A stretch of DNA of 48,443 bases from Candidatus Saccharimonadales bacterium (GTDB lineage: Bacteria > Patescibacteriota > Saccharimonadia > Saccharimonadales > JAYRRP01), in assembly GCA_041906765.1 (NCBI GenBank), contig JAYRIP010000009.1, positions 1 to 48,443 on the forward strand, read 5' to 3'. A program made the translations under genes and the position numbers. Below the pieces are notes generated by a model. It made no database searches. It was given only the letters and a program-made list of their open reading frames with translations, and was not told where the DNA came from. Positions 22,443 to 41,376 of this stretch are shown here, one piece after another. The first letter of the stretch is position 1, and each line of letters starts with the position of its first letter.

Positions 22443-22494
22443 TATTACAATTTTTGAGGGCTATCTGCTACGCTATCGCAACTACTATTAGAAA

Positions 22495-22995
22495 TTACCA
22501 AGGACATTTAGAAGTTTCTGTGCCAGGTTGGATTTCCTGATTTCCCCATACTAATGCATGCCTTGACCAGAATGGTTTACTCTCAGCATTTGCGTGTGGG
22601 CTATTTGGTGTCGGCGGAGTTTGCGAACCTAGCCATGCGCTATATAAGTCATAGCTCCTATCATCAAGACGTTTTAATGTGATGGCAACCATTGATGACG
22701 GCTGGGGCTGCTGAGATTTGGTAAACCGTATGTGCCTGTCGCGGTTTTTCCGAATGGCGTATACTATTGCATCGCTTTCATTAGTTTCTACCAAGTCGGA
22801 CATTCCTAACGGCTGGCCCGTGTTGGCATCAAATTCCATAATGTCACCTGATATGTCAGTTTTTTCTAGAATTGATTTTACATACGGTCGTATTTGCGGA
22901 GTGTCCTCAAAGTGGGTTGATGCGTGGGAATGGACGGGGTCATATGTTACCTCAATACCATTTTTGGAGCGAGCAAAAAACTCGCGATTATCCAT
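22495..22995 (-). CDS. hypothetical protein (166 aa)
   Basis: ORF trimmed to the ATG at 22995 because the upstream extension runs antisense through tRNA-Lys. Confidence 0.5.
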   Translation of the reverse strand: MDNREFFARSKNGIEVTYDPVHSHASTHFEDTPQIRPYVKSILEKTDISGDIMEFDANTGQPLGMSDLVETNESDAIVYAIRKNRDRHIRFTKSQQPQPSSMVAITLKRLDDRSYDLYSAWLGSQTPPTPNSPHANAESKPFWSRHALVWGNQEIQPGTETSKCPW

Positions 22996-28925: not shown

Positions 28926-29303
28926 TTAGTGCTTAGTTTTTAGCTGGTTCTGAACGAGTTCGGCTACTTGTCGAGGAGTCATGTCTGCCTTCAAAATAAC
29001 GGCAGAAACACCTAGCTCTTTGACTGGTTCGGGAATTTCTTGTTCACCGACGTTAGTTAAAATGACCACCATGGTATCTTTGCCCCAGGTGGTTTTTCGC
29101 ATTTGTGCAAGCATTTGGTCGCCGGTCATCTCCGGCATCATCAGGTCGAGCAACACAATATCTGGTCGCATCTTTTCACACAGTTCCAGGCCAAGTTTAC
29201 CGTTTTCAGCAGTTTCTACTTGATAACCTTCGCCCTCGAACTTGATGCGATACATCTGACTTATCGCTATGTCATCTTCTATGATGGCAATTTTGGCTGC
29301 CAT
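28926..29303 (-). CDS. standalone CheY-like receiver protein 1
   Basis: IIEDD, LLDLMMP (phospho-Asp), LTN, LKA. Confidence 0.9.
   Translation of the reverse strand: MAAKIAIIEDDIAISQMYRIKFEGEGYQVETAENGKLGLELCEKMRPDIVLLDLMMPEMTGDQMLAQMRKTTWGKDTMVVILTNVGEQEIPEPVKELGVSAVILKADMTPRQVAELVQNQLKTKH
29108..29166. repeat. 59-nt block identical between receiver genes 1 and 2
   Basis: 29108-29166 equals 29522-29580 (CAAGCATTTGGTCGCCGGTCATCTCCGGCATCATCAGGTCGAGCAACACAATATCTGGT). The flanking codons have diverged. Confidence 0.9.
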
Positions 29304-29345
29304 GTATGTATGTTACGGGATGGCGCAAGCGAATACAACCGGGCT

Positions 29346-29723
29346 TTATTTTGCTTGCAGCACATCTTTGATGGCTTCAACTACTTGTTGAGGGGTAAGG
29401 CTGGCCTTTACGAGGTAACGGGAAACATCAAGGTGTAATAAGCTTTCGGGAGCTTCATCTGCACTGATATTGGTGAGCACCACTACTTTCATTTGTCCCC
29501 AGTTTTCTTGACGTACCTTTTCAAGCATTTGGTCGCCGGTCATCTCCGGCATCATCAGGTCGAGCAACACAATATCTGGTTGGAAGCGCTTAATAAGTTC
29601 GTATCCTGTAGCCCCGTCTTGCGCAATTGCAGTATTGAATCCCTCGCCGTCGAATTTGATTTTATACATCTCTGCGATGGCAAGGTCATCCTCAACAATG
29701 GCAACCTTATAAGCTCTCGACAT
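29346..29723 (-). CDS. standalone CheY-like receiver protein 2
   Basis: IVEDD, LLDLMMP, LTN, VKA. The start was set to MSRAYK by analogy with its paralogues. Confidence 0.88.
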   Translation of the reverse strand: MSRAYKVAIVEDDLAIAEMYKIKFDGEGFNTAIAQDGATGYELIKRFQPDIVLLDLMMPEMTGDQMLEKVRQENWGQMKVVVLTNISADEAPESLLHLDVSRYLVKASLTPQQVVEAIKDVLQAK

Positions 29724-29779
29724 ATTACCCAGCATACGCCCCGCAATGTCACAACACAAATTGCGTCAAGAGACGCAAG

Positions 29780-30178
29780 TCAGGCATCTGTGCGGCTAGT
29801 GCCAAGCACTTCATCCACAATTGCCAGCACCTGCCCAGGGGTGTAGTGTGCTTTTACTATGTAGCGGTCAACGCTTAACAGGCGAAGCTTGCTGGGGGCC
29901 TCATCCTTACTGATGTTCGTAAGGATAATTACCCGAATATCGCCGCCCCAGCTTGTGGCACGGAGCTGTTCCAGCATGTCATCACCGGTCATTACGGGCA
30001 TACGGATATCAAGTAGCACCAGGTCTGGTCGATTTTCTTCTATAATCTCGAGTCCTTGTTTACCGTTATAGGCGACCACTGTATCAAAACCGGCTTTCTG
30101 TAGCTTTAATTGATACATGTGCGCAATTGGCAGGTCATCTTCAATGATGGCTATTTTTTGTTTATTCTGTTTGCGCAT
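29780..30178 (-). CDS. standalone CheY-like receiver protein 3
   Basis: IIEDD, LLDIRMP, LTN, VKA. Confidence 0.9.
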   Translation of the reverse strand: MRKQNKQKIAIIEDDLPIAHMYQLKLQKAGFDTVVAYNGKQGLEIIEENRPDLVLLDIRMPVMTGDDMLEQLRATSWGGDIRVIILTNISKDEAPSKLRLLSVDRYIVKAHYTPGQVLAIVDEVLGTSRTDA

Positions 30179-30310
30179 ACACTTTCAGAATAACAGCAAC
30201 TGAAAATTACTTAAATCTTTAGAATTAGAACTCAACGAAATAATTTTATATTGCTTTTATAAAGAGATGAATATGATGATTATTTCGATCACTATGTAGT
30301 TAACCTACTA

Positions 30311-30898
30311 TTAATAATCAGACTTATACATTTCTTGCTGTATTAAGTCTCTGATTATTTCAGATTTTGTCTTACCGGTCTGCAGTCCGACCCAGTTCAA
30401 ATAATTTAATAATTTTCTAGTAATGAAGAAATTAAAACGGATGTTTTTTCCGTCCATACTATTTTCACTTATAAATTTCTTGATAACCCCTTCAACGTTA
30501 CTGTCTGTATAATGGGAATATTTAATTATATCTTCACTAAGGCTAACACCTAATACACTATCTATTTTCTCTAACTTTGATAGAAGTAAAATTGGTTTCT
30601 TCAACTGGAGTGCATGCGCCACTTGAAACCCGACTAAAAAAGATTTTTGACCGACTTCAGCAACTACGATATCGGCTCGAGATATGGCATTAATATTTTC
30701 GCGGTATATTTCTGACCAAGATAATTCATTTTTAGCGTTACTGTCAGAAAGAGTGTGTCGTCTATGGGCGTTCTCAAGCCAATTACTTGTAAGCTCGACA
30801 CCATGCTTTTTGAGTATATTAATAATTAATCGATATGAGTGAATTTCTGACTCAAGTTCGATGGTAGACGTAATAAAATGAGCCCTCATATTAGGCAT
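30311..30898 (-). CDS. nucleoside 2-deoxyribosyltransferase-like domain fused to a C-terminal ribbon-helix-helix domain (putative ligand-sensing regulator)
   Basis: ADIVVAEV....S.LVGFQVAHALQLKKPILLL resembles the NDT fold, with Gln where the catalytic Glu is expected. The C-terminal RFNFFITRKLLNYL...GKTKSEIIRDLI looks RHH-like. Start set to the ATG at 30898. Confidence 0.5.
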   Translation of the reverse strand: MPNMRAHFITSTIELESEIHSYRLIINILKKHGVELTSNWLENAHRRHTLSDSNAKNELSWSEIYRENINAISRADIVVAEVGQKSFLVGFQVAHALQLKKPILLLSKLEKIDSVLGVSLSEDIIKYSHYTDSNVEGVIKKFISENSMDGKNIRFNFFITRKLLNYLNWVGLQTGKTKSEIIRDLIQQEMYKSDY

Positions 30899-30906
30899 TG
30901 TAACAT

Positions 30907-30933
30907 TGTATATACATACTTCGTGTGTATATA
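30907..30933. promoter_or_regulatory. divergent promoter region with two direct TGTATATA boxes (candidate operator)
   Basis: TGTATATA occurs at 30907-30914 and 30926-30933, 19 bp apart. The boxes overlap the minus-strand -10 (TACAAT, 30905-30910) and the plus-strand -10 (TATAAT, 30930-30935). Confidence 0.35.
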
Positions 30934-30965
30934 ATATAAACTGATAATTCTGTGAGCTAAAGTAC

Positions 30966-31859
30966 ATGACAGATATTCCCAAAGTTGAGACAGCAATTAA
31001 CGCAGAAACAGCCGAGCTTGAAAACTCTCCACAAATTTATGTTGGTTCTCCAGATTTTCAGTTGCCAGTCGTTGGACACGAAGTTATTGCGTATAGAGAG
31101 ACGGAGTTTTTTGTTGGTAAAGTTGCACTTGATGGTTGCTGTAGAACAGGGAAAGGAGAGCAGCTAAGATCTCTCCATAGTTATTTTACTTCTAGAGGGG
31201 TGCCAACAATGCTATTAAAAGGTGACGGTACTCGCCTAGGGGCCGGTGAAGCGTGGCACGATCTCGGCTCCTGTTATTGGACACATCGGCATGATTATCA
31301 TGCTGGCCTTCATACACCTCGAGCCGAATGGGATGTTGATGCATATACTTTAGCCAGAGAGAATCGGGTATGGCTAAAAACTTTAGATGAGATCGCTAAG
31401 ATATCTCGTAGTCGGTTTGCGGTTGCAATATTTGACAGGTCCATTATATCTAGAGCTACGCTTGCTATTCAACGAGAAGGTTTAACAGAAGGTCGACTCA
31501 CAGAAGAACAAATGTGGCCTTCGTACATTCAAATACCTGGTGAAGAAATTACTTATGCAGAAACGCAGCCTGATATCTTGTTTAATCTGACAGCACCGCA
31601 AAATGTGCTGGAAGCACGTATCTCACAAGATGATTCTGACCGTGCTTTCAGGATGCGAGCCGTCTACGAGTATTATGATGATTTCATGCGCGCGAAAGAA
31701 GCACTACCAGAAAGCACGAAGACTAAAATAATTGATTTAGATGGTGAAGCTTCAATTGGTGAGAATACCACCATTATCTTGGAGCACTTGAGTGAAGTAT
31801 TTCCAGAAGTGGAACAACTAAAAGTAGTGCCGCCAATGTATGAGAGATACACATCATGA
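30966..31859 (+). CDS. thymidylate-kinase/dNK-like P-loop protein with an atypical Walker A
   Basis: LDGCCRTGKGEQ (GxxxxGKG) followed by FDRSIISRATL, which is DRY/S-like. Confidence 0.5.
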   Translation: MTDIPKVETAINAETAELENSPQIYVGSPDFQLPVVGHEVIAYRETEFFVGKVALDGCCRTGKGEQLRSLHSYFTSRGVPTMLLKGDGTRLGAGEAWHDLGSCYWTHRHDYHAGLHTPRAEWDVDAYTLARENRVWLKTLDEIAKISRSRFAVAIFDRSIISRATLAIQREGLTEGRLTEEQMWPSYIQIPGEEITYAETQPDILFNLTAPQNVLEARISQDDSDRAFRMRAVYEYYDDFMRAKEALPESTKTKIIDLDGEASIGENTTIILEHLSEVFPEVEQLKVVPPMYERYTS

Positions 31860-32269
31860 ATGTAAATGTGAGTGCAATTATAACCCACAATCGTAGAGTG
31901 CTTTTAATTCAACGAGATATTAATGATGAGCATTTTCCTGGTCACTGGGGTATACCTGGAGGTGGCATGGAGAAGGGGGATATGTCTATTGAGGAAACTG
32001 CTATAAGAGAGGTTCTGGAAGAGGTCGGACTTCACATTATTCCTACTGAAATCAGATTTAATAATAGGTATAAAGATGTTTTGTTTATAGTGATCACCGC
32101 AATACTCGCCAATAGAAAGGAATATTCTAATAAGCTAAATACTTCAAGTGAGGTTTATGGCCATGAGTGGGTAGGGCGGGATGAACTCGAAGATAAAAAT
32201 TTTACCCCGTTTACGAAAGAGAGAGTACTAGAAGTGTTAGAAGAGCTTAATTTGGATGCAGATAAGTAG
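31856..32269 (+). CDS. Nudix hydrolase
   Basis: Nudix box GGGMEKGDMSIEETAIREVLEEVGL. ATGA overlap with the upstream gene. Confidence 0.85.
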   Translation: MNVNVSAIITHNRRVLLIQRDINDEHFPGHWGIPGGGMEKGDMSIEETAIREVLEEVGLHIIPTEIRFNNRYKDVLFIVITAILANRKEYSNKLNTSSEVYGHEWVGRDELEDKNFTPFTKERVLEVLEELNLDADK

Positions 32270-33656
32270 GATCATCCTTGTCGGCTTTGGTCGTCACGCA
32301 AAAAGAATCTATCAACCTATTATAAGCAGTTTACCCAACGCCCAAATAGTGGGTGTTGTTGATCTTCAAGAAGAAAAAGAAGCTTTACAAGCATATTTAT
32401 CACAGCATGATATCAATACTGCTACTCTATTTGTGCGAAAAAATGATTTTAGCCTGACCAAACTGAGTGTATTCGCCAAGCAACTTGGTGCGAATGTGGC
32501 TGTTATTAGTACTGATCCTGAGAATCATGTCATATATGCAACATGGGCGCTTAAAAGTGGTCTTCATGTTCTAATGGATAAACCAGTGCACGCGGAGCCA
32601 GAATCAGCCCATGATGTCACAGCTGCACGATGCATCCACTTACGATATCAAGAGTTACTGAGTCAGTTCCACGAGAGCAAAGAGGTGTATCCGCATCTTA
32701 AATGCATAATTCTGACACAACGTCGGTACCATCCGGCATACAGGTTAATTAGAGATATTATCAAGGAAGTATTTGAAAAGACCGGTAGCCCGATTACTTA
32801 TTACTATAGCTTCCACAACGACGGGCAATGGCGTCTCCCAAAAGAGTTAGCGACACTTGAATACCACGGGTTTAATAAAGGTTTTGGTAAGGCTTCTCAT
32901 TCAGGCTATCATTTTTATGATTTGCTGAATTGGTTTTCTGAACCATATCGAAAAGCCTTTTGTATAGATAGATTATCCGTGAAAGCTTGGCCAAATTTTC
33001 CTAATAACTATTATCGGCAAGTAACACCTACAGTCATTAATAGCGTATTTCAGGATTATCGTGTGCATTCCTCAGAAAAGAACAAATTTTCTAATTACGG
33101 TGAGATCGACGTTATGAGCACAATACAACTTTGTTCTGAGGAAAGTACTATTACTCACGCCCAGGTGGATCTACTGCATTCCGGCATATCTACCAGATCA
33201 TGGTTGGCGATCGAAGGGAGAGATTTATATAAAAATAACGGGAGAGTACGACACGAGCAACACTATATAAACATGGGACCATTTCTCGCTATTTCACTTA
33301 CCTCTTGGCAATCAAAACCGTTTCATGCAGAGAATATAGAAGATAAAGCAATCTTCAGACCAGGACACGAATTTAATCTTGATATTTCGATTTGCCGTAA
33401 CAGCAAGCTCATCGGTGGAAAGGATGCGGAGACAATTTCCCTAAGAGATATTTATGAACCAACCCTAGAAGATTACTCAAGGGGCCACCAGGAAGACGCA
33501 AGAAGGAGCGCCATAGTAGAATTCTTTCAACTTGTTGAGACGAACCGAGGAGACAATACCTCTTCATTAGAGTCACATATGCTCTCAAGTATGATTATGT
33601 CGACTGTCTACGAGTCAATCGCAAGCAAAGATAGAGTAGTAAATAGATTTGTATAA
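32256..33656 (+). CDS. Gfo/Idh/MocA-family oxidoreductase
   Basis: N-terminal Rossmann motif ILVGFGRHA and ...VLMDKP. Overlaps the Nudix gene stop. Confidence 0.65.
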   Translation: MQISRIILVGFGRHAKRIYQPIISSLPNAQIVGVVDLQEEKEALQAYLSQHDINTATLFVRKNDFSLTKLSVFAKQLGANVAVISTDPENHVIYATWALKSGLHVLMDKPVHAEPESAHDVTAARCIHLRYQELLSQFHESKEVYPHLKCIILTQRRYHPAYRLIRDIIKEVFEKTGSPITYYYSFHNDGQWRLPKELATLEYHGFNKGFGKASHSGYHFYDLLNWFSEPYRKAFCIDRLSVKAWPNFPNNYYRQVTPTVINSVFQDYRVHSSEKNKFSNYGEIDVMSTIQLCSEESTITHAQVDLLHSGISTRSWLAIEGRDLYKNNGRVRHEQHYINMGPFLAISLTSWQSKPFHAENIEDKAIFRPGHEFNLDISICRNSKLIGGKDAETISLRDIYEPTLEDYSRGHQEDARRSAIVEFFQLVETNRGDNTSSLESHMLSSMIMSTVYESIASKDRVVNRFV

Positions 33657-34026
33657 GGTAATTAAATTGAGAAAAGATTGGAAGAACTTAGCCCCAGGTT
33701 TAGTTCGACAAAGGGTGATTATTGAAGGTACGACAAGTAAAATAATCAAACAGATAGAGATTAAAAAATATTTGAATGAACTTGCTAAAGTAACGGGTAT
33801 GGAAAAATTGTCCGGGCCTTATGCGTATTCTGCACATGAGATGGGATACGGAGGATGGATTCACTGGAAAACATCTGGCGCTACCTTTTACTCATATCCG
33901 GTTGAGCCACCTTTCTTTACAGTTGATTGTTATACATGTAAACCTTTTTCTGCTAAGGAAGCAGCGGAATTCACTAAGAGTTACTTTTTAACTATCGAGC
34001 TTGTTTGGCAAGAAGTTGAAGTATAG
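33649..34026 (+). CDS. S-adenosylmethionine decarboxylase-like (pyruvoyl-enzyme fold) protein
   Basis: 125 aa. WKTSGATFYSYPVEPPFFTVDCYTCKPF resembles the SHI.IHTWPE....D.FTCG core of small AdoMetDCs. Only a TTG start is available. Confidence 0.5.
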   Translation: MYKVIKLRKDWKNLAPGLVRQRVIIEGTTSKIIKQIEIKKYLNELAKVTGMEKLSGPYAYSAHEMGYGGWIHWKTSGATFYSYPVEPPFFTVDCYTCKPFSAKEAAEFTKSYFLTIELVWQEVEV

Positions 34027-34180
34027 AAAGTAGCTGGCTAGACTAAATAATGACAGCTGATTTTCTAGTTGTATACTTCCATTACCTTTTTAAGATCTAG
34101 GGTTATAAAAAGGCAACTAGGGAAATATTGACTTTTTAAACCATTTATGCTATTTTACAACTCAGTACTTTAGCAGAATA

Positions 34181-34235
34181 AAGCCGACGCTGAAGCCCTG
34201 AGGGCAAATACATGGCGTCGGTTTTTTATTTTTCG
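34181..34235 (+). terminator. rho-independent terminator or attenuator
   Basis: CCGACGC (34184-34190) pairs with GCGTCGG (34215-34221), enclosing an inner hairpin GCCC-TGA-GGGC, followed by TTTTTTATTTTT. Confidence 0.7.
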
Positions 34236-34280
34236 CAAGCATGTGTACTCGTGCGTAGCTATTTGAGGATATGCCAGAGA

Positions 34281-35663
34281 ATGCCAGAAAAACATAAAAG
34301 TAAACTAAGTATATATCCGCAGGTATTAATTGGTAGCGTACTAAGCTCTACACTTCAAAAATTATATGGTGTTCAGTTTGATCTTAGGATGGTACGCCAA
34401 AATAGGAAAAAAAAGGTGGGAACACTTGATTTTATCGATTATGCAATCCCTTGTTTCGAGCTTGCGAGAGAGCTTAATATTAGTCCGGAAGTAATCGCTA
34501 AAAGACTGGCTGAGAGCGTCTCTAGCAGTAAAGATGAGTCAGACGTAGGTCAATATATTCGTGATTCATATATTGAGGCTGTAGATGGCTATTTAAACTT
34601 TCAACTTTCTGATAACTACCTTGCCAAATTGATATCGCAAGCTGCACAGTGGTTCAGCCTCCCTCAGTTAATTACTGCTTCTGTAAGACCTCAGGCTATG
34701 CTAGTGATTGGACCTACCATTTCTGAAACTGTCCAACCGTATGACACGATGTATCAAGCTCTTTTCTGTGCTGATGCAATGTATAAATTACTAGGTAAGG
34801 AAGTTCCGAAATATTGTCTTCTACGTGATTACTCTGAAGATACCCTTGATATACTTACCGGGTTGCTGGAAGCGATCGATAATTCAAAACTTCCTGGAGT
34901 ATATCCTAATTCTAGGACGTTTGAATTTACGCGCCAAACAAAATCCTTTATGACAAAATCAGGAGAAAATCCGGAGAACGAAAAAGTAACGAAATTATAC
35001 GGGGAAAAGCGAAATGACTGGCTGAAACTACATAAGAAATCGTTGAGTTTCTTGGATCAACCGGAGAATAGGGTCTTGTTTGAATCATCATTGGCATATC
35101 AGGTCAATGGTTTCATTGATGAACTATCTGACAATAGATTGAAAGGTATCATCCACGATGCAGAGACTGGAGCTGTATATTATATAACTCCCGGTAATGA
35201 AGCGCTTGCTCTTAGGTCTGCAGGCGGATTGTTATATAGCTTTGCTTACTTATTGTTTGCTCTCGAAGCCATACTAGGAGTGATAGAAGAAAAAAGAAAT
35301 GGTGAAGTCCTAATAATTGTCCCACAGAAACTTCACCCAATTATTTACCAGTATTTCGCTATGTTAAAGGAATATAAAAGCTTATCATCAACGATCATTT
35401 GTTTTGATCCTGCAGTCTCACAAGCTGACATAGTTGAAATAAACCGAAGTATCCCTAGATTAATGGAGCACTTTACTAATCTATCGACCGTCCTTAAGGA
35501 CGTAATGGCAAGCGATCTGGATCATTATAAGGCGCGACAAAATGTATTGTCATTAATTGACTTACCTTCTGAACTCAGCAGCTATATTGCTGGTGGGAAT
35601 TTGGCGGCACTTTTTGATGCCTTAAATCACTCTGCGTTAGCAGCTAATGAACTTAGTCGCTAA
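34281..35663 (+). CDS. arginyl-tRNA synthetase-like paralogue lacking the HIGH motif
   Basis: The N-terminus resembles the ArgRS add-on domain (DFIDYAIPCFELARELNISPEVIAKRLAE). In the Rossmann entry strand VIGPTISETVQPYDTMYQALFCADAMYKLLG, the expected S.NP.GPLH.GH is replaced. Start trimmed past the terminator hairpin. Confidence 0.5.
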   Translation: MPEKHKSKLSIYPQVLIGSVLSSTLQKLYGVQFDLRMVRQNRKKKVGTLDFIDYAIPCFELARELNISPEVIAKRLAESVSSSKDESDVGQYIRDSYIEAVDGYLNFQLSDNYLAKLISQAAQWFSLPQLITASVRPQAMLVIGPTISETVQPYDTMYQALFCADAMYKLLGKEVPKYCLLRDYSEDTLDILTGLLEAIDNSKLPGVYPNSRTFEFTRQTKSFMTKSGENPENEKVTKLYGEKRNDWLKLHKKSLSFLDQPENRVLFESSLAYQVNGFIDELSDNRLKGIIHDAETGAVYYITPGNEALALRSAGGLLYSFAYLLFALEAILGVIEEKRNGEVLIIVPQKLHPIIYQYFAMLKEYKSLSSTIICFDPAVSQADIVEINRSIPRLMEHFTNLSTVLKDVMASDLDHYKARQNVLSLIDLPSELSSYIAGGNLAALFDALNHSALAANELSR

Positions 35664-36858
35664 AAAAGACATGGATATCTCTACTAATGAGGATAGGATG
35701 CACAATTTTTTGATCACCGTATAACAAGAAATTGGCCTTAGAACCAAAGCCACCGTATTCATCGTTGCCATGTTCAACATCATTGACTATTTTATTCCGA
35801 ATGATTTTTACGAAGTCTAATTTATTCTCGATTGCAGAGTTGCTTCCAAAAATACTCGCATACATCCCTCGGTCAACAAAATTAGATTCGGTCAGTGCTT
35901 CACTCAATTCTTCTTCGTTATTGTACTCGAGGATGTAAAAAATTGGCGCGAAAAATTCATGGTAATCTTTGCCTCTTTCCGATATTTTTTTGCGTATGAT
36001 GGTGGGGTGGACGAGACGTTGTTTCTGATCTATCTTACCTCCGTAAATAATGTGACTTTTTTCTTTATCTAACCATTTTTGTAGTTCTGCTATGTAGGAT
36101 TCTTTAACTGTGGGTCCAATAAGACACGCAGGATCAGTAGTGGCACCTACTTTAATACTGGAAAGCAACCGTTTTAGTTCAGCTGTAAAATCGTTCGAAA
36201 TTTCGGTAGGGACAAAAAATGCATCTGGTCCGGCACAATCCTGACCGCTGTTAAAGCATCGCATCTCAATGGCCTTTTTAGCAGCTAGACGCACATTCGC
36301 ATTTTTAAATAATAAGAAGGGATTAATGCCACTGCCGTTATATACCAAAAGCGTATGTGGACATTGTCTGTGTATATCTAAAGCGTTTTGGTATTTACCT
36401 GTAAATATGATGACATCAGACTCCGTGGCATATAAATCCATAAATATATTGCGGGGTGATTCTTTTAGGGAGATGTTTGGAAAACGTTCTTCTATCTTGA
36501 GCATTTTCCAGAGTTTGTTTAGAATTTCACGCATTACTTCTGGTGGACGTATGAAAATGTGATCTGCAAATACACTTGGAGCGATACCAAATAGCACTAG
36601 TGAATACAGGGGCAAATTCATAGGAAAGAAAGTGGCAAATGTCAATCCAGAGGCCTGGTTCTTGATACTGCTTAACTCCTTGCGCATACCTTGGAGTGTA
36701 TCAATAGACCGATCCAATTCATCTCTAGCTGTCTCGTAGGTTTCGTAGTTTACCAGTAATTTAATAACCTGTTCTGAATGTGTGGTTAGTTCTCTCGATA
36801 AGTCAGAACAACTGAGAAGAAACTGCTCTGATTTGGTGTCAGTAGTAACTAAGGGCAT
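35653..36858 (-). CDS. short aldehyde dehydrogenase-superfamily protein
   Basis: Catalytic Cys motif FNSGQDCAGPD. The YNGSGINP segment aligns to ELGGKNP, with Asn replacing the general-base Glu. Confidence 0.6.
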   Translation of the reverse strand: MPLVTTDTKSEQFLLSCSDLSRELTTHSEQVIKLLVNYETYETARDELDRSIDTLQGMRKELSSIKNQASGLTFATFFPMNLPLYSLVLFGIAPSVFADHIFIRPPEVMREILNKLWKMLKIEERFPNISLKESPRNIFMDLYATESDVIIFTGKYQNALDIHRQCPHTLLVYNGSGINPFLLFKNANVRLAAKKAIEMRCFNSGQDCAGPDAFFVPTEISNDFTAELKRLLSSIKVGATTDPACLIGPTVKESYIAELQKWLDKEKSHIIYGGKIDQKQRLVHPTIIRKKISERGKDYHEFFAPIFYILEYNNEEELSEALTESNFVDRGMYASIFGSNSAIENKLDFVKIIRNKIVNDVEHGNDEYGGFGSKANFLLYGDQKIVHPILISRDIHVFFSD

Positions 36859-37001
36859 AAGGACTCTTCTTATTGCTTAGTAATAACTATTATGTTATAA
36901 TAATACATGTTATACACTGCTGTGTACTTAGTTAATTCTACAATATATCTGTTGAGATTACATTTAAAAGAAGATATCGAAGAAGCATAGGAGTTACTGG
37001 C

Positions 37002-37715
37002 GTGCCAGAAAGCAACTACGAACCAAGACATCTTAGGCCAGAAGGAAACTCTGCTCTACCTATGGGTTGTGGGGAGGTATCCCCGGAGAACCAAAGTTGG
37101 CTTAAAAGGGCGCTCCATGTGGGCAAGCGTGGGGTTGAAGCTGCAGTTATTGTGGCAGAGGTAACTCCTGCCAACGAAGCTATTCGCGTTGCAGCATTCG
37201 CAACTGCGCAAGCAATTTCAGGTGATCCGGTTACTGGTGCTCTCGCTTACGGTGGCTCTACATTTATTATTGAAGGTGCTGCAGCAGTAGCAGCCGGTGA
37301 TTATCTCGCCACAAGGTCTAAGGATCCTATAGTGAAAGATGGGCTTATGAGGAAAGCTATTGATTGGACCGATGACAAAGTAGACAGGATTATACCTCGC
37401 GATGGGCAGATGTCCTTGGCTGCGCAAGGTGCCACTGCTTTTCTGGGTGGGTCTGCGGTGTTAATGTGGGCTCATGATCGGCAGAACCCTGGACTTACGC
37501 GAGGGGAGCAGATTCGCTACGGTCTGTCTATGTCTGGTGTCATGGCTGGTATTTGTGCAGTTCAAGGGGCACTGGTGGCAGAAGGTATCAGTTCACCCTC
37601 ACCTAGGTCAATAGGGATTGCTTTACTGGGTGTCGCAGGGATACCTGCTGCAGCAAGTTGGATGAAGAAACATTTTACTAAGGGTGGAGGAAAAATCGAT
37701 GAAGGAAATGAGTAA
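37002..37715 (+). CDS. Gly/Ala-rich multi-TM membrane protein, hypothetical
   Basis: RBS AGGAG lies 8 nt upstream of the GTG. Several hydrophobic helices. Confidence 0.6.
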   Translation: MPESNYEPRHLRPEGNSALPMGCGEVSPENQSWLKRALHVGKRGVEAAVIVAEVTPANEAIRVAAFATAQAISGDPVTGALAYGGSTFIIEGAAAVAAGDYLATRSKDPIVKDGLMRKAIDWTDDKVDRIIPRDGQMSLAAQGATAFLGGSAVLMWAHDRQNPGLTRGEQIRYGLSMSGVMAGICAVQGALVAEGISSPSPRSIGIALLGVAGIPAAASWMKKHFTKGGGKIDEGNE

Positions 37716-38841
37716 TCAAGAGATCGCTTCGGCTGAACTTGCGAGAAGCTATGAGCTTTATAGTTCACTATTTGAGGGCATAAATTCTGAATTTCCACAG
37801 CACCAAGGCTTTTTTGAGGAAGAATTTAAACGGGCCTTACATAATCCAAGTGTCATAAAAACTACTGTACAGTCGCTTGGTGAAACATGCCTCTTGCCTC
37901 AAATAGAGCCGATTAATTCCTTTGAATGGCTCAATGAAGATTATTATAAAAGACGTTACCCAGATGAACATAAGAAGGGTCGGCTTTTACATTTTACAGA
38001 TATACCAAGTATTGAGCCGGGGGAAGCAGTGAAAGATTCCCTACTGAATTTAGCAGCAGAAAAGGGCGTACTGGTGTTTGATTATCCATCTGTTGATCAA
38101 ACTTATCCTGAGCGAGTCACCACTCTTTTGAACAATATAGGAATAACGTGTGGAGAGATCGAACTCCTTGGTACTCAGACGTATCATGCTGGCCAAGTTT
38201 ACCTGAAGCGTGTTGCTCCGTTTGATAAGCCACTCGATACTATAGAAGCCTTTAAAAGGCTCGATTCAACAGGTGAATTTGATGCTGCCAGTTATGTAAA
38301 TGGAGCATCGGTACACGAGGAAGTTGCAGGTGAAGAAGCCGACAATATGTATAGGGTTTATGAAAAAGCGTATGAAACTTTGAATGATCACCCCTGTAAG
38401 CAAGGGATTGATGCCGACGAATTTTTAGACATGGTTTCAAACGATAAAGCTATAGCTAAAGTTGTATACGCTGAAAATAATCAAATCGCTACACTTTGCC
38501 TCATTGCTACTGATCTAGGAAAATTGACTTGGGTCAACAGTGATTATTACAAGGATAACTTCGCTAACAAATATGACAAGGGCCAGGTCACCTGGTTTCC
38601 TGCGATAGCTACCGATCCCGAAAGAACTGGGGAGCGAAACGCTGCTAAAATCATTGAATTACTAACTCAATTGGCTGAAGTAGGAGGAAATGACTACGTA
38701 GTTGTTTTTGATACTCCTGATAAAAACGCTTTCCTTGCGGATTATCTAGGCTATCTTATTAATAGTTCAGATGAAGCAGGTATAGATTTTACAGTTTTAG
38801 GTGCACAGCAATATTGTGCTGCACGGCTTGGTCATCACTAA
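37699..38841 (+). CDS. hypothetical cytoplasmic protein (380 aa)
   Basis: RBS GGAGG lies 8 nt upstream of the ATG at 37699. Overlaps the upstream gene end. No motif recognised. Confidence 0.6.
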   Translation: MKEMSNQEIASAELARSYELYSSLFEGINSEFPQHQGFFEEEFKRALHNPSVIKTTVQSLGETCLLPQIEPINSFEWLNEDYYKRRYPDEHKKGRLLHFTDIPSIEPGEAVKDSLLNLAAEKGVLVFDYPSVDQTYPERVTTLLNNIGITCGEIELLGTQTYHAGQVYLKRVAPFDKPLDTIEAFKRLDSTGEFDAASYVNGASVHEEVAGEEADNMYRVYEKAYETLNDHPCKQGIDADEFLDMVSNDKAIAKVVYAENNQIATLCLIATDLGKLTWVNSDYYKDNFANKYDKGQVTWFPAIATDPERTGERNAAKIIELLTQLAEVGGNDYVVVFDTPDKNAFLADYLGYLINSSDEAGIDFTVLGAQQYCAARLGHH

Positions 38842-38907
38842 CATGCAATAGAAACAGCGTAGAACATTGCTCTGTTATAAGGTAAACTCATAACAGGTAT
38901 AGTTATT

Positions 38908-41079
38908 ATGCTTTTTCCGAATATTTTACTGGCAGTTTCAGCTACCGTAGTGTTGCTATTGGTATTGTTTGTCTTTGTAAGCAATCCCAAAAAACTCGAA
39001 AATCGAATACTAGCGCTGTTCTTGTCCAGTATATTCTTATGGTTGTTTGCTAATTTTCTCACTAATATTACCGCCAACCAAGGTCTTTCCCTCTTCTTTG
39101 CACGCACAACTCTCATAGGCCCAGTACTTTTAGCTTATAGTTTTCTTATATTCTGCCATGTCTTTACGAGAGTGAGTTATTTCAGCAAGAAGGAGGCGCT
39201 ACTACTTGCTATACCCCCCGTCCTGCTCCTTTTCACATTCCCTACAACCCTCAATATTGAAAGCGTAAAGTCTTATGGACGTGATACAGTCACTGGCCCA
39301 ATTTACATAGCTCTTATACCCATGCTCTTAGTCTATTTTATTTGGGGCTTCGTACTTTTACGGCGTAACCACAAGAGCACAAAAAATACTCTGAAAAAAG
39401 CTCAAATTCGATACATATTTTTTGGCGTTGGGGCTGCATTTATACCAAGCGTTATCATTAATGGTATTTTGCCAATTTTTGGCAACTTAACATTATCCCT
39501 GTATGGTCCAAACGCCATAGTGCTATTCGCTATTTTTATGAGTTTGGCAATCGTCAAACACCGTTTACTTGATATTAGATTGATAGTAGCAAGATCAGCA
39601 ACATACATTTTCACTATACTGATCGTTGGGTTCATCTACGGCTTCACGGCTTTTACGTTAATCGGGAACATTTTCTTTAAAGACAAGCCATACACAACTT
39701 TGCAACAGGTTGTAAACACGGTTTTGGCCATTATTTTAGTATTTACTTTTCCGGTAATTAAGCGATTTATAGATAGATTGTCGAATAAGTTCTTCTACCG
39801 TGACGCTTATGATGCTCAAACATTGTTGGATCATCTAAACCAAGTATTAGTATCAACGATTGATTTAAACGATCTGCTCAAAAGTACGGCACAAATTCTA
39901 GATAGTGAATTCAAGGTTAGATTTAGCATTTTTCAGATAAATGAAAAAAATGGCACAAAACCTCGGCTTATTGGATACAACAAAGATAAAACCATAATAA
40001 ACGATTCGCAAATACTGACAGGATTTGAAAAGTATATGAAGGGTAGGATTGCAATTGCTGACGAATTGCAAGAAGGGGAGCCACTTCATGAAATGATGCG
40101 TGAAAATGATATAGCAATAATTATTAGATTGGGTACCACAGGTGTACATCAAGCTGCGATCGGTTACTTAGTCTTAGGAGATAAGCAGAATGGTAGCCCC
40201 TATGACACGCAAGATCTAAGGGTTTTAGAGATCATCACTAATGAACTTGTCATTGCTATCCAGAATGCTTTGCGGTTTGAAGAGATTCAACAGTTCAACA
40301 TTACCCTGCAGCAGAAGGTGGATGAGGCGACGCGGCAACTCCGTAAGACCAACGAAAAGCTCAAAGAACTGGATGAAACTAAGGATGAGTTTATCAGCAT
40401 GGCATCCCATCAGTTACGCACACCTCTAACCAGCATGAAGGGCTATGTAAGCATGGTGCTGGAGGGTGACACTGGCCGAATTACCCCCAAACAGCGGCAA
40501 ATGCTTGACCAGGCTTTCGCCAGTGCTCAGCGTATGGTGTATTTGATCGCTGACCTACTCAATGTCTCACGCCTGCGCACGGGTAAATTTGTCATTGAAA
40601 ACAAACCCACCCAACTAATAGACGTTGTTAGTTCTGAAATGGAGCAACTCACAGGGGCGGCACGGGCCAAAAACCTTGAACTGGCCTTCGATAAGCCTAA
40701 GAGTCTGCCCGCTTTGAACCTGGATGAAACCAAAATACGTCAGGTAGTGATGAACTTTATCGACAACGCCCTTTATTACACACCGGTAGGCGGCCGCATC
40801 CAGGTAAAGTTAACTGATCAGAACGGCAGTGTAGAGTTTACTGTCACTGATGACGGATTAGGGGTGCCAAAATCCGAGCAGCATCACTTATTTACCAAGT
40901 TCTATCGAGCTGGAAATGCCCGCAAGGCTCGCCCAGACGGCACGGGTCTGGGGCTGTTTATGGCCAAGAAAGTCATTGTGGCCCAAGGTGGAGCAATTAT
41001 CTTTTCAAGTACAGAGGGCAAAGGGAGCACCTTTGGCTTTACGCTGCCCAAGACTAAATTAGCTGCACCTACCACGTAG
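38908..41079 (+). CDS. sensor histidine kinase: about 7-TM N-terminal domain, GAF-like domain, HisKA, HATPase_c
   Basis: H-box FISMASHQLRTPLTSM, N-box NFIDNALYYT, G-boxes DDGLGV and GTGLGLFMAK. Seven hydrophobic helices in the first ~270 aa. Confidence 0.9.
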   Translation: MLFPNILLAVSATVVLLLVLFVFVSNPKKLENRILALFLSSIFLWLFANFLTNITANQGLSLFFARTTLIGPVLLAYSFLIFCHVFTRVSYFSKKEALLLAIPPVLLLFTFPTTLNIESVKSYGRDTVTGPIYIALIPMLLVYFIWGFVLLRRNHKSTKNTLKKAQIRYIFFGVGAAFIPSVIINGILPIFGNLTLSLYGPNAIVLFAIFMSLAIVKHRLLDIRLIVARSATYIFTILIVGFIYGFTAFTLIGNIFFKDKPYTTLQQVVNTVLAIILVFTFPVIKRFIDRLSNKFFYRDAYDAQTLLDHLNQVLVSTIDLNDLLKSTAQILDSEFKVRFSIFQINEKNGTKPRLIGYNKDKTIINDSQILTGFEKYMKGRIAIADELQEGEPLHEMMRENDIAIIIRLGTTGVHQAAIGYLVLGDKQNGSPYDTQDLRVLEIITNELVIAIQNALRFEEIQQFNITLQQKVDEATRQLRKTNEKLKELDETKDEFISMASHQLRTPLTSMKGYVSMVLEGDTGRITPKQRQMLDQAFASAQRMVYLIADLLNVSRLRTGKFVIENKPTQLIDVVSSEMEQLTGAARAKNLELAFDKPKSLPALNLDETKIRQVVMNFIDNALYYTPVGGRIQVKLTDQNGSVEFTVTDDGLGVPKSEQHHLFTKFYRAGNARKARPDGTGLGLFMAKKVIVAQGGAIIFSSTEGKGSTFGFTLPKTKLAAPTT

Positions 41080-41247
41080 TAGTTATTATCTGATCTTATA
41101 GGAGTAAGGTGAAAATCTTCGCTGCAATTTGCTGCGAAGCATGAGTATTATTGCATTTGCAGGCACAATTTCGTGAGGGTTTTTGAACACGGGGAAACAC
41201 AAGCCTAAACAATATGCTTGTGCTAATCCAAAATTATTACATAAGGC

Positions 41248-41276
41248 TTGACATAAAGTAGTGCTTGTGGTAAAGT
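41248..41276 (+). promoter_or_regulatory. sigma70-like promoter
   Basis: TTGACA (41248-41253), 17-nt spacer, TAAAGT (41271-41276), about 100 nt upstream of the ATG at 41377. Confidence 0.45.
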
Positions 41277-41376
41277 TAAGCACGATAACCCAAGATAGAG
41301 GTGGGCTATCCCCTAAAGAGGAAATTAAGCAATTAAGCCAGCTACTGGCAGTTGCATAAGGAGAGACATAATAATT

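What the first reader, a model, noticed from the sequence alone, without database searches (positions are those of the whole stretch)
30179..36999. AT-rich 6.7-kb island with an unusual enzyme set: NDT-like/RHH regulator, atypical dTMP-kinase-like protein, Nudix, Gfo/Idh/MocA oxidoreductase, AdoMetDC-like protein, degenerate ArgRS paralogue, ALDH-like protein
I counted G+C in individual 60-nt lines by hand. Inside the island the counts were about 25-37% (lines starting at 30301, 32401 and 35101). In flanking genes they were about 45-60% (lines starting at 2281, 27001 and 37201). The shift begins right after receiver gene 3 and ends before 37002, which suggests horizontal acquisition. Four genes (30966-34026) overlap or abut as one operon, divergent from a putative ligand-sensing repressor. 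The operon combines a nucleotide kinase-like protein with a noncanonical P-loop, a Nudix pyrophosphatase, a sugar- or nucleotide-type dehydrogenase and a pyruvoyl-decarboxylase-fold protein. Together with an aaRS-like protein and an aldehyde dehydrogenase-like protein, this resembles pathways that build or dismantle amino-acid-decorated nucleotides or nucleosides. Several key catalytic residues appear substituted: Glu to Gln in the NDT-like domain, Ser/Thr to Gly in the Walker A, loss of HIGH in the ArgRS-like protein, and Glu to Asn in the ALDH-like protein. I cannot assign the cluster to any described pathway or defence system.
Basis: partly seen in the sequence, partly recalled or inferred. 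Interest (0 to 1): 0.68.

Follow-up and report, generated by a model that had tools for sequence, protein, structure and literature searches.

The report
Accessory nucleotide-modifying operon in Saccharibacteria
The AT-rich stretch is two separate things: a 4-kb five-gene cassette that sister genomes lack, which probably converts a nucleotide into a modified one under a nucleotide-sensing repressor, and next to it a conserved pair of degenerate enzyme-like genes that belong to the lineage's core genome.

Summary
A sister genome (86% nucleotide identity) joins window ~30165 directly to ~34127. The variable unit is therefore only the 3.96-kb cassette at 30164-34126.

The cassette has five genes. 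A DNPH1-like/RHH regulator is read divergently from an operon of four: a thymidylate-kinase-fold kinase, a Nudix hydrolase, a long Gfo/Idh/MocA NAD oxidoreductase and an AdoMetDC-fold pyruvoyl decarboxylase. The five-gene set recurs in about ten loci, all Saccharibacteria/Patescibacteria, in unrelated contexts. It carries a conserved palindromic operator over its promoter.

The cassette is one variant of a much larger, undescribed Patescibacteria-centred module: long Gfo plus kinase plus phosphohydrolase (25 of 36 loci). Elsewhere the Gfo is fused to Nudix, HD or APH domains.

The ArgRS-like and ALDH-like genes (34212-36858) are syntenic core genes in four other genomes, none of which has the cassette.

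Best reading (about 0.45): a regulated pathway that makes a modified (deoxy)nucleotide. Its logic resembles the puromycin/ADG (Pur10 + Pur7) and cordycepin pathways, but it is not a member of either. The product is unknown.

It matches no described pathway or defence system.

The parts
30164..34126 (.). Accessory cassette: the segment present in the window and absent from sister contig L097. L097 has 61 bp here in place of 3963 bp. GC is 0.387.
   Evidence: blastn: L097 1-598 matches window 29553-30163, and L097 660-7978 matches window 34127-41445 at 86% identity. Junction alignment. No flanking direct repeats, integrase or tRNA.
30311..30898 (-). Regulator: a DNPH1/Rcl-like (nucleoside 2-deoxyribosyltransferase superfamily) pseudo-enzyme sensor domain fused to a C-terminal ribbon-helix-helix/CopG DNA-binding domain. 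Length is 195 aa; the longer TTG ORF reaching 30982 is probably not used.
   Evidence: Pfam Nuc_deoxyrib_tr 27 bits, plus weak RHH_1. Closest solved protein is DNPH1/Rcl, E 1.4e-6. PHROG CopG-like repressor hit on residues 145-189. The catalytic Tyr/Asp/Glu are His/Asn/Gln in nearly all RHH-fused homologues (all have Gln for the Glu except L025, which has Phe). An RHH-less relative (L055) keeps Tyr/Asp/Glu. The gene call in L001 is 195 aa.
30910..30935 (.). Putative operator and promoter of the operon. Inverted repeat ATATACATAC (30910-30919) / GTGTGTATAT (30923-30932), 9 of 10 complementary. It overlaps a perfect -10 TATAAT (30930-30935), 31 nt upstream of the kinase ATG.
   Evidence: Read from the sequence. 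Alignment of the divergent intergenic regions of 7 cassette loci gives the consensus TTGACATACATATATnATATGTATATAAT, with invariant ATAC...G.ATA. The consensus scan did not call this promoter in the window because its -35 is weak.
30966..31859 (+). Thymidylate-kinase-fold NMP kinase. P-loop is DGCCRTGKGEQ; it also has KGDGTR and DRSIISR motifs. The first ~45 residues are disordered and variable.
   Evidence: No Pfam hit. AF2 pLDDT 80.6. Foldseek top hits are thymidylate kinases, E ~5e-6. PHROG thymidylate kinase, E 1.8e-6. The family has 32 clusters at 56-84% identity with about 90 invariant positions.
31856..32269 (+). Nudix pyrophosphohydrolase. The REVLEEVG core is intact; the Nudix box is slightly non-canonical.
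   Evidence: Pfam NUDIX, E 7.6e-21. Below the cut-off of every NCBIfam equivalog. It overlaps the kinase gene by 4 nt.
32256..33656 (+). Long (466 aa) Gfo/Idh/MocA-family NAD-dependent oxidoreductase. It has GxGxxA, Asp36 and a DKP motif, and a divergent C-terminal domain rich in invariant His and Arg.
   Evidence: Pfam GFO_IDH_MocA, N-terminal part only. 857 relatives at E<=1e-3. Invariant motifs. Full-length relatives at 30% identity on Streptomyces and Bacillus plasmids.
33649..34026 (+). AdoMetDC-fold protein, a putative pyruvoyl-dependent amino-acid decarboxylase. The processing Ser76 (KT|SG) and Cys97 are kept.
   Evidence: Pfam AdoMet_dc 31.6 bits, above the cut-off of 25. Alignment to Aquifex AdoMetDC 2III. 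Ser is nearly invariant and many relatives have E|S. Replaced by a PLP group II decarboxylase in L006 and L020.
34212..35663 (+). Not part of the cassette. A shrunken ArgRS paralogue without a HIGH motif; the start is probably at 34281 (460 aa). It is a lineage core gene.
   Evidence: Pfam Arg_tRNA_synt_N only. AF2 pLDDT 78.6. The Foldseek top 20 are all ArgRS, E 1e-12 to 2e-7. Only 6 clusters in 5.8 billion proteins. Syntenic in L097, L099, L100 and L101.
35653..36858 (-). Not part of the cassette. A truncated ALDH-superfamily protein with the catalytic Cys kept and Asn at the general-base position. It is always convergent with the ArgRS paralogue.
   Evidence: Pfam Aldedh, E 9e-30. PDB alignment. 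YNGSG and GQDCAGPD are invariant in five genomes at 57-89% identity. Neighbourhoods.

Best explanation
The stretch holds two unrelated units.

(1) 30164-34126 is a variably present five-gene cassette of Saccharibacteria.

Shown:
- It is an indel between sister genomes.
- The five-gene set is conserved across unrelated contexts.
- The regulator is a DNPH1-like domain with all three catalytic residues replaced (Tyr/Asp/Glu to His/Asn/Gln), fused to an RHH domain.
- A conserved palindrome overlaps the operon promoter.
- The Gfo partners with a kinase and a phosphohydrolase across a large family, and is sometimes fused to them.

Inferred mechanism:
- The repressor sits on the palindrome and is released, or tightened, by a (deoxy)nucleoside 5'-monophosphate bound in its dead active site.
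- The Nudix enzyme converts an NTP or dNTP to the monophosphate.
- The long Gfo oxidoreductase uses NAD to oxidise a hydroxyl of that nucleotide. The target could be a sugar 3'-OH, as with Pur10, or a base hydroxymethyl.
- The pyruvoyl decarboxylase (a PLP decarboxylase in some variants) makes or trims an amino-acid-derived amine that ends up on, or reacts with, the oxidised nucleotide.
- The TMPK-fold kinase re-phosphorylates the modified monophosphate.
- The product would be a modified nucleotide or nucleoside: either an antimetabolite/chain terminator or a modified DNA precursor.

(2) 34127-36999 is a conserved convergent pair, a degenerate ArgRS paralogue and a Cys-only ALDH-like protein. 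It belongs to the core genome between the receiver genes and the 7TM histidine kinase. Its low GC is intrinsic to the genes, not a sign of acquisition.
For: Indel and boundaries.

Cassette conservation: the same regulator / kinase / (Nudix) / Gfo / decarboxylase set occurs in L006, L007, L009, L014-L016 and L018-L020. Neighbours differ: T4SS plus type III R-M, serine recombinase plus OLD nuclease, or a ribosomal operon.

Rarity: the kinase family was found in 3 of 185,579 species genomes, all Saccharibacteria/Patescibacteria.

Enzyme assignments.

Sensor logic:
- The triad is replaced only in RHH-fused members.
- The E104Q mutant of DNPH1 binds hmdUMP without cleaving it (PMC10603095).
- The operator is conserved.

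The module is real:
- Of 36 non-redundant long-Gfo loci, 29 have a kinase, 27 a phosphohydrolase and 25 both within 2.5 kb.
- Fusions: HD-Gfo, Gfo-NUDIX and Gfo-APH.

Nucleotide context: class II RNR, ThyA-like genes, a dCMP deaminase and further TMPK-like kinases lie next to relatives.

An alpha-amino-acid decarboxylation step is supported by non-homologous replacement of the AdoMetDC-fold gene by a Pyridoxal_deC gene (E 2e-17).

Precedents: Pur10 (NAD-dependent ATP dehydrogenase) with Pur7 (Nudix) in the puromycin and ADG clusters (PMC11641026 and PMC9239236). Cordycepin uses an oxidoreductase plus a phosphohydrolase (PMC10710699).

Core status of the ArgRS-like/ALDH-like pair.
Against: - No substrate or product is shown. 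The order of steps and the oxidised position are guesses.
- Gfo/Idh/MocA enzymes usually act on sugars or inositols, not nucleotides. Homology of this Gfo to Pur10 could not be tested because no Pur10 sequence was on hand.
- The puromycin-type aminotransferase and monophosphatase are absent. There is no exporter or resistance gene, which weakens an antibiotic reading.
- Two variants (L006, L020) lack the Nudix gene.
- The kinase P-loop reads GKGEQ where relatives have GKGTQ. Activity is assumed from conservation alone.
- The direction of the indel (gain or loss) rests on parsimony over five genomes. L016 carries the cassette in the same receiver-to-kinase interval.
Confidence: 0.45

Rival explanations
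1. One reading: one horizontally acquired 6.7-kb island (30179-36999) whose seven genes form a single pathway for amino-acid-decorated nucleosides. In this view the ArgRS-like protein attaches the amino acid and the ALDH-like protein processes it.
For: GC is uniformly low across all seven genes. Puromycin-type pathways do attach an amino acid to a modified nucleoside. A Bacillus plasmid relative of the Gfo lies next to an NRPS-like adenylation-condensation protein.
Against: The sister genome keeps the ArgRS-like and ALDH-like genes in place and lacks only 30164-34126. None of about ten other cassette loci has either gene. All five ArgRS-like loci have the ALDH-like gene, and four of the five lack the cassette. 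The pair is AT-rich relative to its flanks in every genome. The ArgRS paralogue has no HIGH motif.
Confidence: 0.03
2. The cassette is an anti-phage defence system. The pseudo-DNPH1 sensor would detect a phage-type nucleotide such as a 5-hydroxymethyl-pyrimidine dNMP. The operon would then make a chain-terminating nucleotide, or destroy the nucleotide pool, to block phage replication.
For: - It is present or absent between sister strains.
- Neighbours include a type III R-M system, an OLD-family nuclease, a serine recombinase, T4SS genes and a methyltransferase.
- The Nudix protein matches PADLOC candidate PDC-S07, E 2.7e-13.
- DNPH1 and MilB bind hydroxymethyl-pyrimidine nucleotides.
- The enzyme logic resembles that of pathways making nucleotide analogues.
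Against: - No PADLOC system or other component matches.
- The Nudix hit is weaker than the generic Pfam NUDIX hit.
- One locus lies beside a ribosomal-protein operon, and the window locus lies among core genes.
- There are no relatives in viral contigs or phage genomes that would point to an arms race.
- No experiment exists.
Confidence: 0.15
3. The cassette is a salvage or detoxification pathway. Saccharibacteria depend on scavenged nucleosides. The operon would sanitise or dismantle an abnormal or toxic nucleotide taken up from the host or environment, rather than build one.
For: DNPH1 is a nucleotide-pool sanitiser. Pur7 (Nudix) is listed as resistance-mediating in puromycin producers. The cassette has no exporter. 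A repressor that senses a nucleotide fits substrate induction. The family sits in reduced-genome Patescibacteria.
Against: A kinase that re-phosphorylates the product fits synthesis better than disposal. The amino-acid decarboxylase has no obvious role in detoxification. Relatives on Bacillus and Streptomyces plasmids sit in biosynthetic-looking contexts with an NRPS-like protein, a PPTase and an MFS transporter.
Confidence: 0.2
4. The substrate is not a nucleotide. The long-Gfo modules would act on a sugar phosphate, cyclitol or hydroxy-acid, as in inositol, aminocyclitol or coenzyme-M-like chemistry. The kinase, phosphatase and decarboxylase would work on that scaffold.
For: The best named hits of the Gfo are inositol 2-dehydrogenase and generic sugar oxidoreductases. 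Other variants carry an APH-type kinase, a 2-phosphosulfolactate phosphatase, a radical SAM/SPASM enzyme and a TPP enzyme. These recall aminocyclitol and coenzyme M pathways (own knowledge).
Against: In this cassette the kinase has a TMPK fold with the DRxxxS motif. The hydrolase is a Nudix, and the sensor derives from a dNMP hydrolase. Relatives are flanked by RNR, ThyA-like and dCMP deaminase genes.
Confidence: 0.1

Closest known systems
3'-amino-3'-deoxynucleoside pathways: puromycin pur cluster of Streptomyces alboniger and the adgA-E cluster of Photorhabdus luminescens (Pur10, Pur7, Pur4, Pur3)
   Same: A small, low-GC, 4-5-gene operon that combines an NAD-dependent oxidoreductase acting on a nucleotide sugar hydroxyl (Pur10) with a Nudix NTP pyrophosphohydrolase (Pur7). 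It yields a nucleoside analogue that kinases activate (PMC11641026, PMC9239236).
   Different: There is no Pur4-type aminotransferase, no Pur3 monophosphatase and no exporter. Instead it has a TMPK-fold kinase, a pyruvoyl decarboxylase and a nucleotide-sensing RHH repressor. Homology of this 466-aa Gfo to Pur10 was not testable here.
Cordycepin cluster Cns1-Cns3 of Cordyceps militaris
   Same: An oxidoreductase, a phosphohydrolase and a nucleotide-kinase function together remodel a nucleotide's sugar (PMC10710699). The HD-Gfo fusion in L011 mirrors the Cns1/Cns2 partnership.
   Different: That cluster is fungal. Its phosphohydrolase is an HD protein, not a Nudix, and it has no decarboxylase or regulator. 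No sequence relationship was tested.
Phage modified-base pathways (T4 hydroxymethyl-dCMP route; thymidine hypermodification) - own knowledge
   Same: The logic is the same: a pyrophosphatase takes dNTP to dNMP, an enzyme modifies the monophosphate, and a dNMP kinase re-phosphorylates it. The PLP decarboxylases, radical SAM enzymes, ThyA-like hydroxymethylases and dCMP deaminases of those pathways also occur around relatives of the Gfo.
   Different: No relative was found in viral contigs or phage genomes. The constant enzyme here is a Gfo oxidoreductase, which those pathways lack. The window cassette has no ThyA-like gene.
DNPH1/Rcl and MilB (2'-deoxynucleoside 5'-phosphate N-hydrolases)
   Same: The regulator's N-terminal domain aligns to DNPH1/Rcl across the active-site strand, E 1.4e-6.
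   Different: The catalytic Tyr/Asp/Glu are His/Asn/Gln, and an RHH domain is added. It is a sensor, not a hydrolase.
Class 1 AdoMetDC (SpeD) and its amino-acid-decarboxylase offshoots
   Same: Same fold, with the processing Ser and the catalytic Cys conserved.
   Different: It is far from SpeD: phmmer finds only 212 representatives in 1.84 billion proteins. The His five residues after the Ser is Tyr, and the cleavage site is T|S in this clade. The substrate is unknown.

Membership tests
Puromycin/ADG-type 3'-aminonucleoside biosynthetic cluster | NAD-dependent NTP 3'-dehydrogenase (Pur10 homologue) | tested here: inconclusive
   A Gfo/Idh/MocA NAD oxidoreductase is present. No Pur10 or AdgB sequence was available to test orthology, and NCBIfam gives only weak iolG-type hits.
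Puromycin/ADG-type 3'-aminonucleoside biosynthetic cluster | Nudix NTP pyrophosphohydrolase (Pur7 homologue) | tested here: inconclusive
   A Nudix gene is present and translationally coupled. Specific relatedness to Pur7 was not tested.
Puromycin/ADG-type 3'-aminonucleoside biosynthetic cluster | Sugar aminotransferase (Pur4) and monophosphatase (Pur3) | tested here: not met
   No aminotransferase or phosphatase domain occurs in any of the five cassette genes or in the conserved neighbours. The PLP protein of L006 scores as a decarboxylase (Pyridoxal_deC, 2e-17), far above DegT (2e-3).
Known anti-phage defence systems (PADLOC-DB v2) | Match of the system's component proteins to PADLOC models | tested here: not met
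   The only hits are Nudix to the candidate PDC-S07, and a marginal PDC-S06 hit (E 0.009). There is nothing for the regulator, kinase or Gfo.
   The sister contig L097 joins ~30165 to ~34127, not to ~37000. The region 34127-36999 is syntenic in four genomes.
Genomic island acquired by horizontal transfer (cassette 30164-34126 only) | Variable presence, different contexts in other genomes, and mobility signatures | tested here: inconclusive
   Variable presence and unrelated contexts are met. No integrase, tRNA or flanking repeats were found. GC is no different from the adjacent core genes. L016 has the cassette in the same receiver-to-kinase interval.
Thymidylate kinase (dTMP kinase) | TMPK fold with P-loop, DR(Y/H) motif and lid; score above the family cut-off | tested here: inconclusive
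   Fold match at E ~5e-6, TM (target-normalised) 0.55-0.73. PHROG thymidylate kinase, E 1.8e-6. The DRSIISR motif is present. There is no Pfam or NCBIfam hit at all, and identity to solved TMPKs is 14-18%. It is a TMPK-fold kinase, not an orthologue of Tmk.
DNPH1/nucleoside 2-deoxyribosyltransferase enzymes | Catalytic Glu nucleophile with Asp and Tyr | tested here: not met
   The residues are Gln, Asn and His instead, conserved in nearly all RHH-fused members. The Pfam score of 27 is below the cut-off of 28.8.
Arginyl-tRNA synthetase | Class I catalytic core with HIGH (and KMSK) motifs; score above the argS cut-off | tested here: not met
   The fold is ArgRS. Sequence models match only the N-terminal domain: TIGR00456 scores 15 bits against a cut-off of 262. 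No HIGH-like motif is conserved. The protein is 460 aa against about 580.
Hydrolytic aldehyde dehydrogenases | Catalytic Cys plus general-base Glu | tested here: not met
   Cys is kept (GQDCAGPD). The general-base position is an invariant Asn (YNGSG). About 90 N-terminal residues are missing.

The most novel reading that the evidence does not exclude
The long-Gfo plus kinase plus phosphohydrolase modules could be an undescribed, widespread route in Patescibacteria for making non-canonical (deoxy)nucleotides. There are 857 or more Gfo proteins in at least five operon architectures, some beside class II RNR, ThyA-like and radical SAM genes.

In the window's variant, an NAD-dependent oxidation would be followed by coupling to an amine made by the pyruvoyl decarboxylase. 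That would give an amino-alkylated nucleotide. The nucleotide would either be incorporated into the cell's own DNA (a hypermodified base in a cellular organism) or used as a chain terminator against phage or host. The whole pathway would be switched by a transcription factor built from a catalytically dead DNPH1 domain.
Probability: 0.12. Interest if true: 0.85.

Novelty: new variant of a known kind. Interest (0 to 1): 0.6.

Why it matters
Saccharibacteria and other Patescibacteria are reduced-genome epibionts that depend on scavenged nucleotides. A conserved, regulated, strain-variable operon that remodels nucleotides would bear on three questions: how they manage or weaponise nucleotide pools, whether they produce nucleoside analogues (a possible source of antimetabolites), and whether their DNA carries unusual bases.

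The regulator is a clean natural case of an enzyme turned sensor. All three catalytic residues are swapped for near-isosteric non-catalytic ones, and a DNA-binding domain is added.

There is also a practical lesson for genome scanning. Here low GC did not separate acquired genes from core genes; only comparison with a sister genome did.

Tried and rejected
Searches and tests that led nowhere:
- Sequence search of the kinase against PDB, as a single sequence and as a profile, gave only noise and a weak APS-kinase P-loop match at E 0.4. The fold search was needed.
- PADLOC gave only a generic Nudix hit.
- The viral-contig scan with the Gfo profile and the phage tblastn with the kinase found nothing.
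- Rfam found no riboswitch or RNA gene in 29700-37200.
- Contigs of four metagenome runs laid across the junctions showed the cassette-bearing form only. No cassette-less joint was seen, so no within-population polymorphism was detected; contigs do drop rare variants.
- No direct repeats or att-like sites were found at the indel ends.
- The consensus promoter scan did not call the operon promoter in the window because the -35 is weak. The promoter rests on the cross-locus alignment.

Ideas considered and rejected:
- The GKG P-loop as an inactivating change. Relatives have GKGTQ and the motif is invariant.
- The ArgRS-like and ALDH-like genes as pathway members. Synteny contradicts this.
- The 272-aa gene next to the Bacillus Gfo-Nudix fusion as a kinase homologue. 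It is Ldh-like.

Full report
**Observation**

The composition profile shows a real dip. It is the lowest-GC 6.8-kb stretch in the window; only 0.1% of sliding windows are as low. All seven genes have GC3 of 0.315-0.366, against a gene mean of 0.406 (sd 0.057). Several genes elsewhere are equally low: 20260-20970, 21915-22442 and 37684-38841.

The ORFs and their overlaps are as described.
- Nuc_deoxyrib_tr (27 bits, just under the cut-off) plus a weak RHH
- NUDIX
- GFO_IDH_MocA (N-terminal half only)
- AdoMet_dc
- Arg_tRNA_synt_N
- Aldedh

There was no hit for the 297-aa protein. The window carries no tRNA or integrase near the stretch.

**The stretch is two units**

Exact-protein and homologue look-ups recovered the cassette in other contigs. 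tblastn of all window proteins against them shows one recurring set: regulator, kinase, Nudix, Gfo and AdoMetDC-like gene. It occurs in L006, L007, L009, L014, L015, L016 and L018-L020. The ArgRS-like, ALDH-like, 237-aa and 385-aa genes never accompany it.

Conversely, the ArgRS-like protein has only five relatives in 5.8 billion proteins. In the contigs inspected (L097/L098, L099, L100, L101), the gene sits convergent with the ALDH-like gene. In L097, L099 and L100 the pair lies between receiver genes and the 7TM histidine kinase. In L099 and L100 it lies downstream of MurL and MurD, as in the window. None of these contigs has the cassette.

The decisive comparison is contig L097, which is 86% identical over 7.3 kb. 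L097 1-598 aligns to window 29553-30163, and L097 660-7978 aligns to window 34127-41445. The sister genome therefore joins ~30165 to ~34127, not 30178 to ~37000. The variable segment is 3.96 kb, and its ends carry no repeats.

The ArgRS-like/ALDH-like pair is also 1-6 GC points below its flanks in all four other genomes. Its AT-richness is therefore a property of the genes. In another Saccharibacteria MAG (L016; MurD 57% identical, receiver 80%), the cassette lies in the same receiver-to-kinase interval and the ArgRS-like block is absent. This interval looks like a slot of variable content. Gain in the window lineage is the parsimonious reading, but it is not proven.

**The cassette genes**

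*Kinase (30966-31859).* It has no Pfam match, but the family is highly constrained: 32 clusters at 56-84% identity with about 90 invariant positions. An AlphaFold model (pLDDT 80.6) matches thymidylate kinases, and a PHROG thymidylate-kinase profile hits at 1.8e-6. Its P-loop is DGCCRTGKGEQ. More distant relatives in the wider module carry GSGKGTQ, which is the ordinary adenylate-kinase P-loop (own knowledge).

*Nudix (31856-32269).* It has an intact REVLEEVG core.

*Gfo protein (32256-33656).* It has GxGxxA, Asp36 (implying NAD rather than NADP) and a DKP motif. Its long C-terminal domain is full of invariant His and Arg residues.

*AdoMetDC-fold protein (33649-34026).* It aligns to Aquifex AdoMetDC with the processing Ser and the catalytic Cys conserved. 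Many relatives carry the canonical E|S cleavage site. The family is small and remote from SpeD: 212 representatives in 1.84 billion proteins. In L006 and L020 a PLP group II decarboxylase (Pyridoxal_deC, 2e-17) replaces it. This is a non-homologous replacement, and it argues that the step is an alpha-amino-acid decarboxylation.

**The regulator**

The divergent gene most likely starts at 30898 (195 aa). Its N-terminal domain aligns to DNPH1/Rcl. Its C-terminus matches CopG-like repressors.

In an alignment of 20 relatives from the long-Gfo loci, 18 of the 19 RHH-bearing members have Gln at the catalytic Glu position; the exception (L025) has Phe. Asn (Thr or others in the more distant members) replaces the Asp, and His usually replaces the Tyr. 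The one neighbour that lacks the RHH domain (L055 11248-11676) keeps Tyr/Asp/Glu and the GSIRGG phosphate loop. The engineered E104Q mutant of human DNPH1 binds hmdUMP without cleaving it (PMC10603095).

The intergenic regions of seven cassette loci share TTGACATACATATATnATATGTATATAAT. This is a -35, an 8-bp inverted repeat and a -10. In the window the arms are 30910-30919 and 30923-30932, overlapping TATAAT at 30930-35.

Taken together, this is a one-component repressor whose sensor is a dead dNMP hydrolase. That the ligand is a nucleoside monophosphate is inferred.

**The wider family**

The Gfo has 857 relatives at E<=1e-3, mostly about 487 aa and 35-40% identical, largely from Patescibacteria. 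Eighty metagenome loci were fetched and their neighbours clustered. Five architectures recur:
- A: the window's type.
- B: Gfo, TMPK-like kinase and Nudix in any order, often with the same type of regulator.
- C: class II RNR read divergently from an APH-type kinase, Gfo, a 2-phosphosulfolactate-phosphatase-family protein and a radical SAM/SPASM enzyme.
- D: Gfo with an unknown 330-390-aa protein, a kinase or HD protein, and a ThyA-like protein.
- E: regulator, Gfo, a TPP enzyme and a kinase.

Among 36 non-redundant loci with at least 2.5 kb on both sides, 29 have a kinase, 27 a phosphohydrolase and 25 both.

The partners are fused in places:
- HD-Gfo in L011, next to a TMPK-like kinase, a ThyA-like gene, a Nudix and a dCMP deaminase.
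- Gfo-NUDIX on a Bacillus tropicus plasmid, next to a histidine phosphatase, an NRPS-like adenylation-condensation protein, an MFS transporter and a PPTase.
- Gfo-APH on Streptomyces plasmids.

No relatives were found in viral contigs or phage genomes.

**How it most likely works**

The constant trio of oxidoreductase, kinase and phosphohydrolase points to a nucleotide substrate. So do the TMPK fold, the Nudix, the dNMP-derived sensor and the nucleotide-metabolism neighbours.

The nearest documented logic is the puromycin/ADG route. There Pur10 (an NAD-dependent ATP dehydrogenase) and Pur7 (a Nudix) act with an aminotransferase and a phosphatase (PMC11641026, PMC9239236). The cordycepin route uses an oxidoreductase plus a phosphohydrolase (PMC10710699).

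I therefore propose this sequence: Nudix takes NTP or dNTP to the monophosphate; Gfo oxidises a hydroxyl; the decarboxylase provides or trims an amino-acid-derived amine; the kinase re-phosphorylates. Expression would be set by the nucleotide-sensing repressor.

The order of steps, the position oxidised (sugar or base hydroxymethyl) and the product are all inferences. The cassette is not a member of the pur/adg family, because the aminotransferase and phosphatase are absent.

Three rivals remain open: a defence role, a salvage or detoxification role, and a non-nucleotide substrate.

**The ArgRS-like/ALDH-like pair**

A model of the ArgRS-like protein (pLDDT 78.6) matches ArgRS structures in the top 20 hits (E 1e-12 to 2e-7), ahead of CysRS, MshC and MetRS. 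It is thus a true but shrunken paralogue (460 aa). No HIGH motif is conserved.

The ALDH-like protein is strongly conserved (57-89% identity). It has an invariant catalytic Cys and an invariant Asn at the general-base position.

The function of the pair is unknown. It is a separate curiosity of this lineage.

**Source**

The cassette sequence occurs in activated-sludge, compost and wastewater metagenomes. The related MAGs are labelled Candidatus Saccharibacteria or Patescibacteria.

**Verdict**

The cassette is an uncharacterised variant of nucleotide-remodelling operons. It has a well-supported architecture and regulator and an unresolved product.

Noticed in passing
window 34212-36858; L097, L099, L100, L101: A conserved convergent pair whose 3' ends overlap by 11 nt in the window: a shrunken ArgRS paralogue without HIGH (only 6 clusters known) and a Cys-only, N-terminally truncated ALDH-like protein. 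In L097, L099 and L100 the pair sits between stand-alone receiver genes and a 7TM histidine kinase, as in the window. Function unknown.
   Followed up: partly
window 28926-30178 and 38908-41079; L009 13720-16126; L016 13178-14689: Three tandem stand-alone receiver-domain genes flank the cassette on one side, and a HisKA_7TM histidine kinase lies downstream. In L009/L017 and L016 the cassette is also directly followed by a histidine kinase, with a receiver in L009/L017. This could be a functional link or just a variable slot.
   Followed up: no
window 37002-38841: Two overlapping genes (237 aa, probably membrane; 385 aa) with no Pfam, NCBIfam or PADLOC match. They are conserved in the same position in L097 and L099 and apparently fused into a single 617-aa gene in L100.
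   Followed up: no
L021, L024, L031, L032, L035, L037, L050, L052, L053, L056 (architecture C): A recurring operon in Patescibacteria metagenome contigs: class II ribonucleotide reductase read divergently from an APH-type kinase, the long Gfo, a 2-phosphosulfolactate-phosphatase-family protein and a radical SAM/SPASM enzyme, sometimes with a HIT protein. No described pathway is known to me.
   Followed up: partly
L103 9010-15234 (Bacillus tropicus plasmid pBEMB20-1); L102 9001-11556 (Streptomyces plasmid): Gfo-NUDIX and Gfo-APH fusion proteins at 30% identity to the window Gfo. The Bacillus one sits in a biosynthetic-looking cluster with an Ldh-like dehydrogenase, a histidine phosphatase, an NRPS-like A-C protein, an MFS transporter and a PPTase. 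It is a candidate nucleoside natural-product cluster.
   Followed up: partly
L055 11248-11676: A 142-aa DNPH1-like protein with the catalytic Tyr/Asp/Glu and the GSIRGG loop intact and no RHH domain. It lies beside a Gfo-kinase-Nudix trio and is the enzyme counterpart of the sensor-type regulators.
   Followed up: partly
proteins P0165 and P0194-P0200: Relatives of the AdoMetDC-fold protein include tandem two-domain forms of about 240-250 aa and one 1785-aa protein with 11 matched stretches.
   Followed up: no
L006 8598-9242; L015 8654-9292: A TauD-family Fe/2-oxoglutarate dioxygenase lies next to the regulator in two cassette variants. It may add a hydroxylation step.
   Followed up: no
L016 5645-6193: By my reading of the sequence alone (no profile search was run), a 182-aa ORF looks like a pyruvoyl-dependent arginine decarboxylase. 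It lies between the receiver gene and the cassette in the Saccharibacteria MAG that carries the cassette in the same interval.
   Followed up: no
window 16000-22500 and 658-6861: A second low-GC region (0.40) with small genes on the minus strand, and a 2067-aa ORF at the start of the window. Neither was examined.
   Followed up: no
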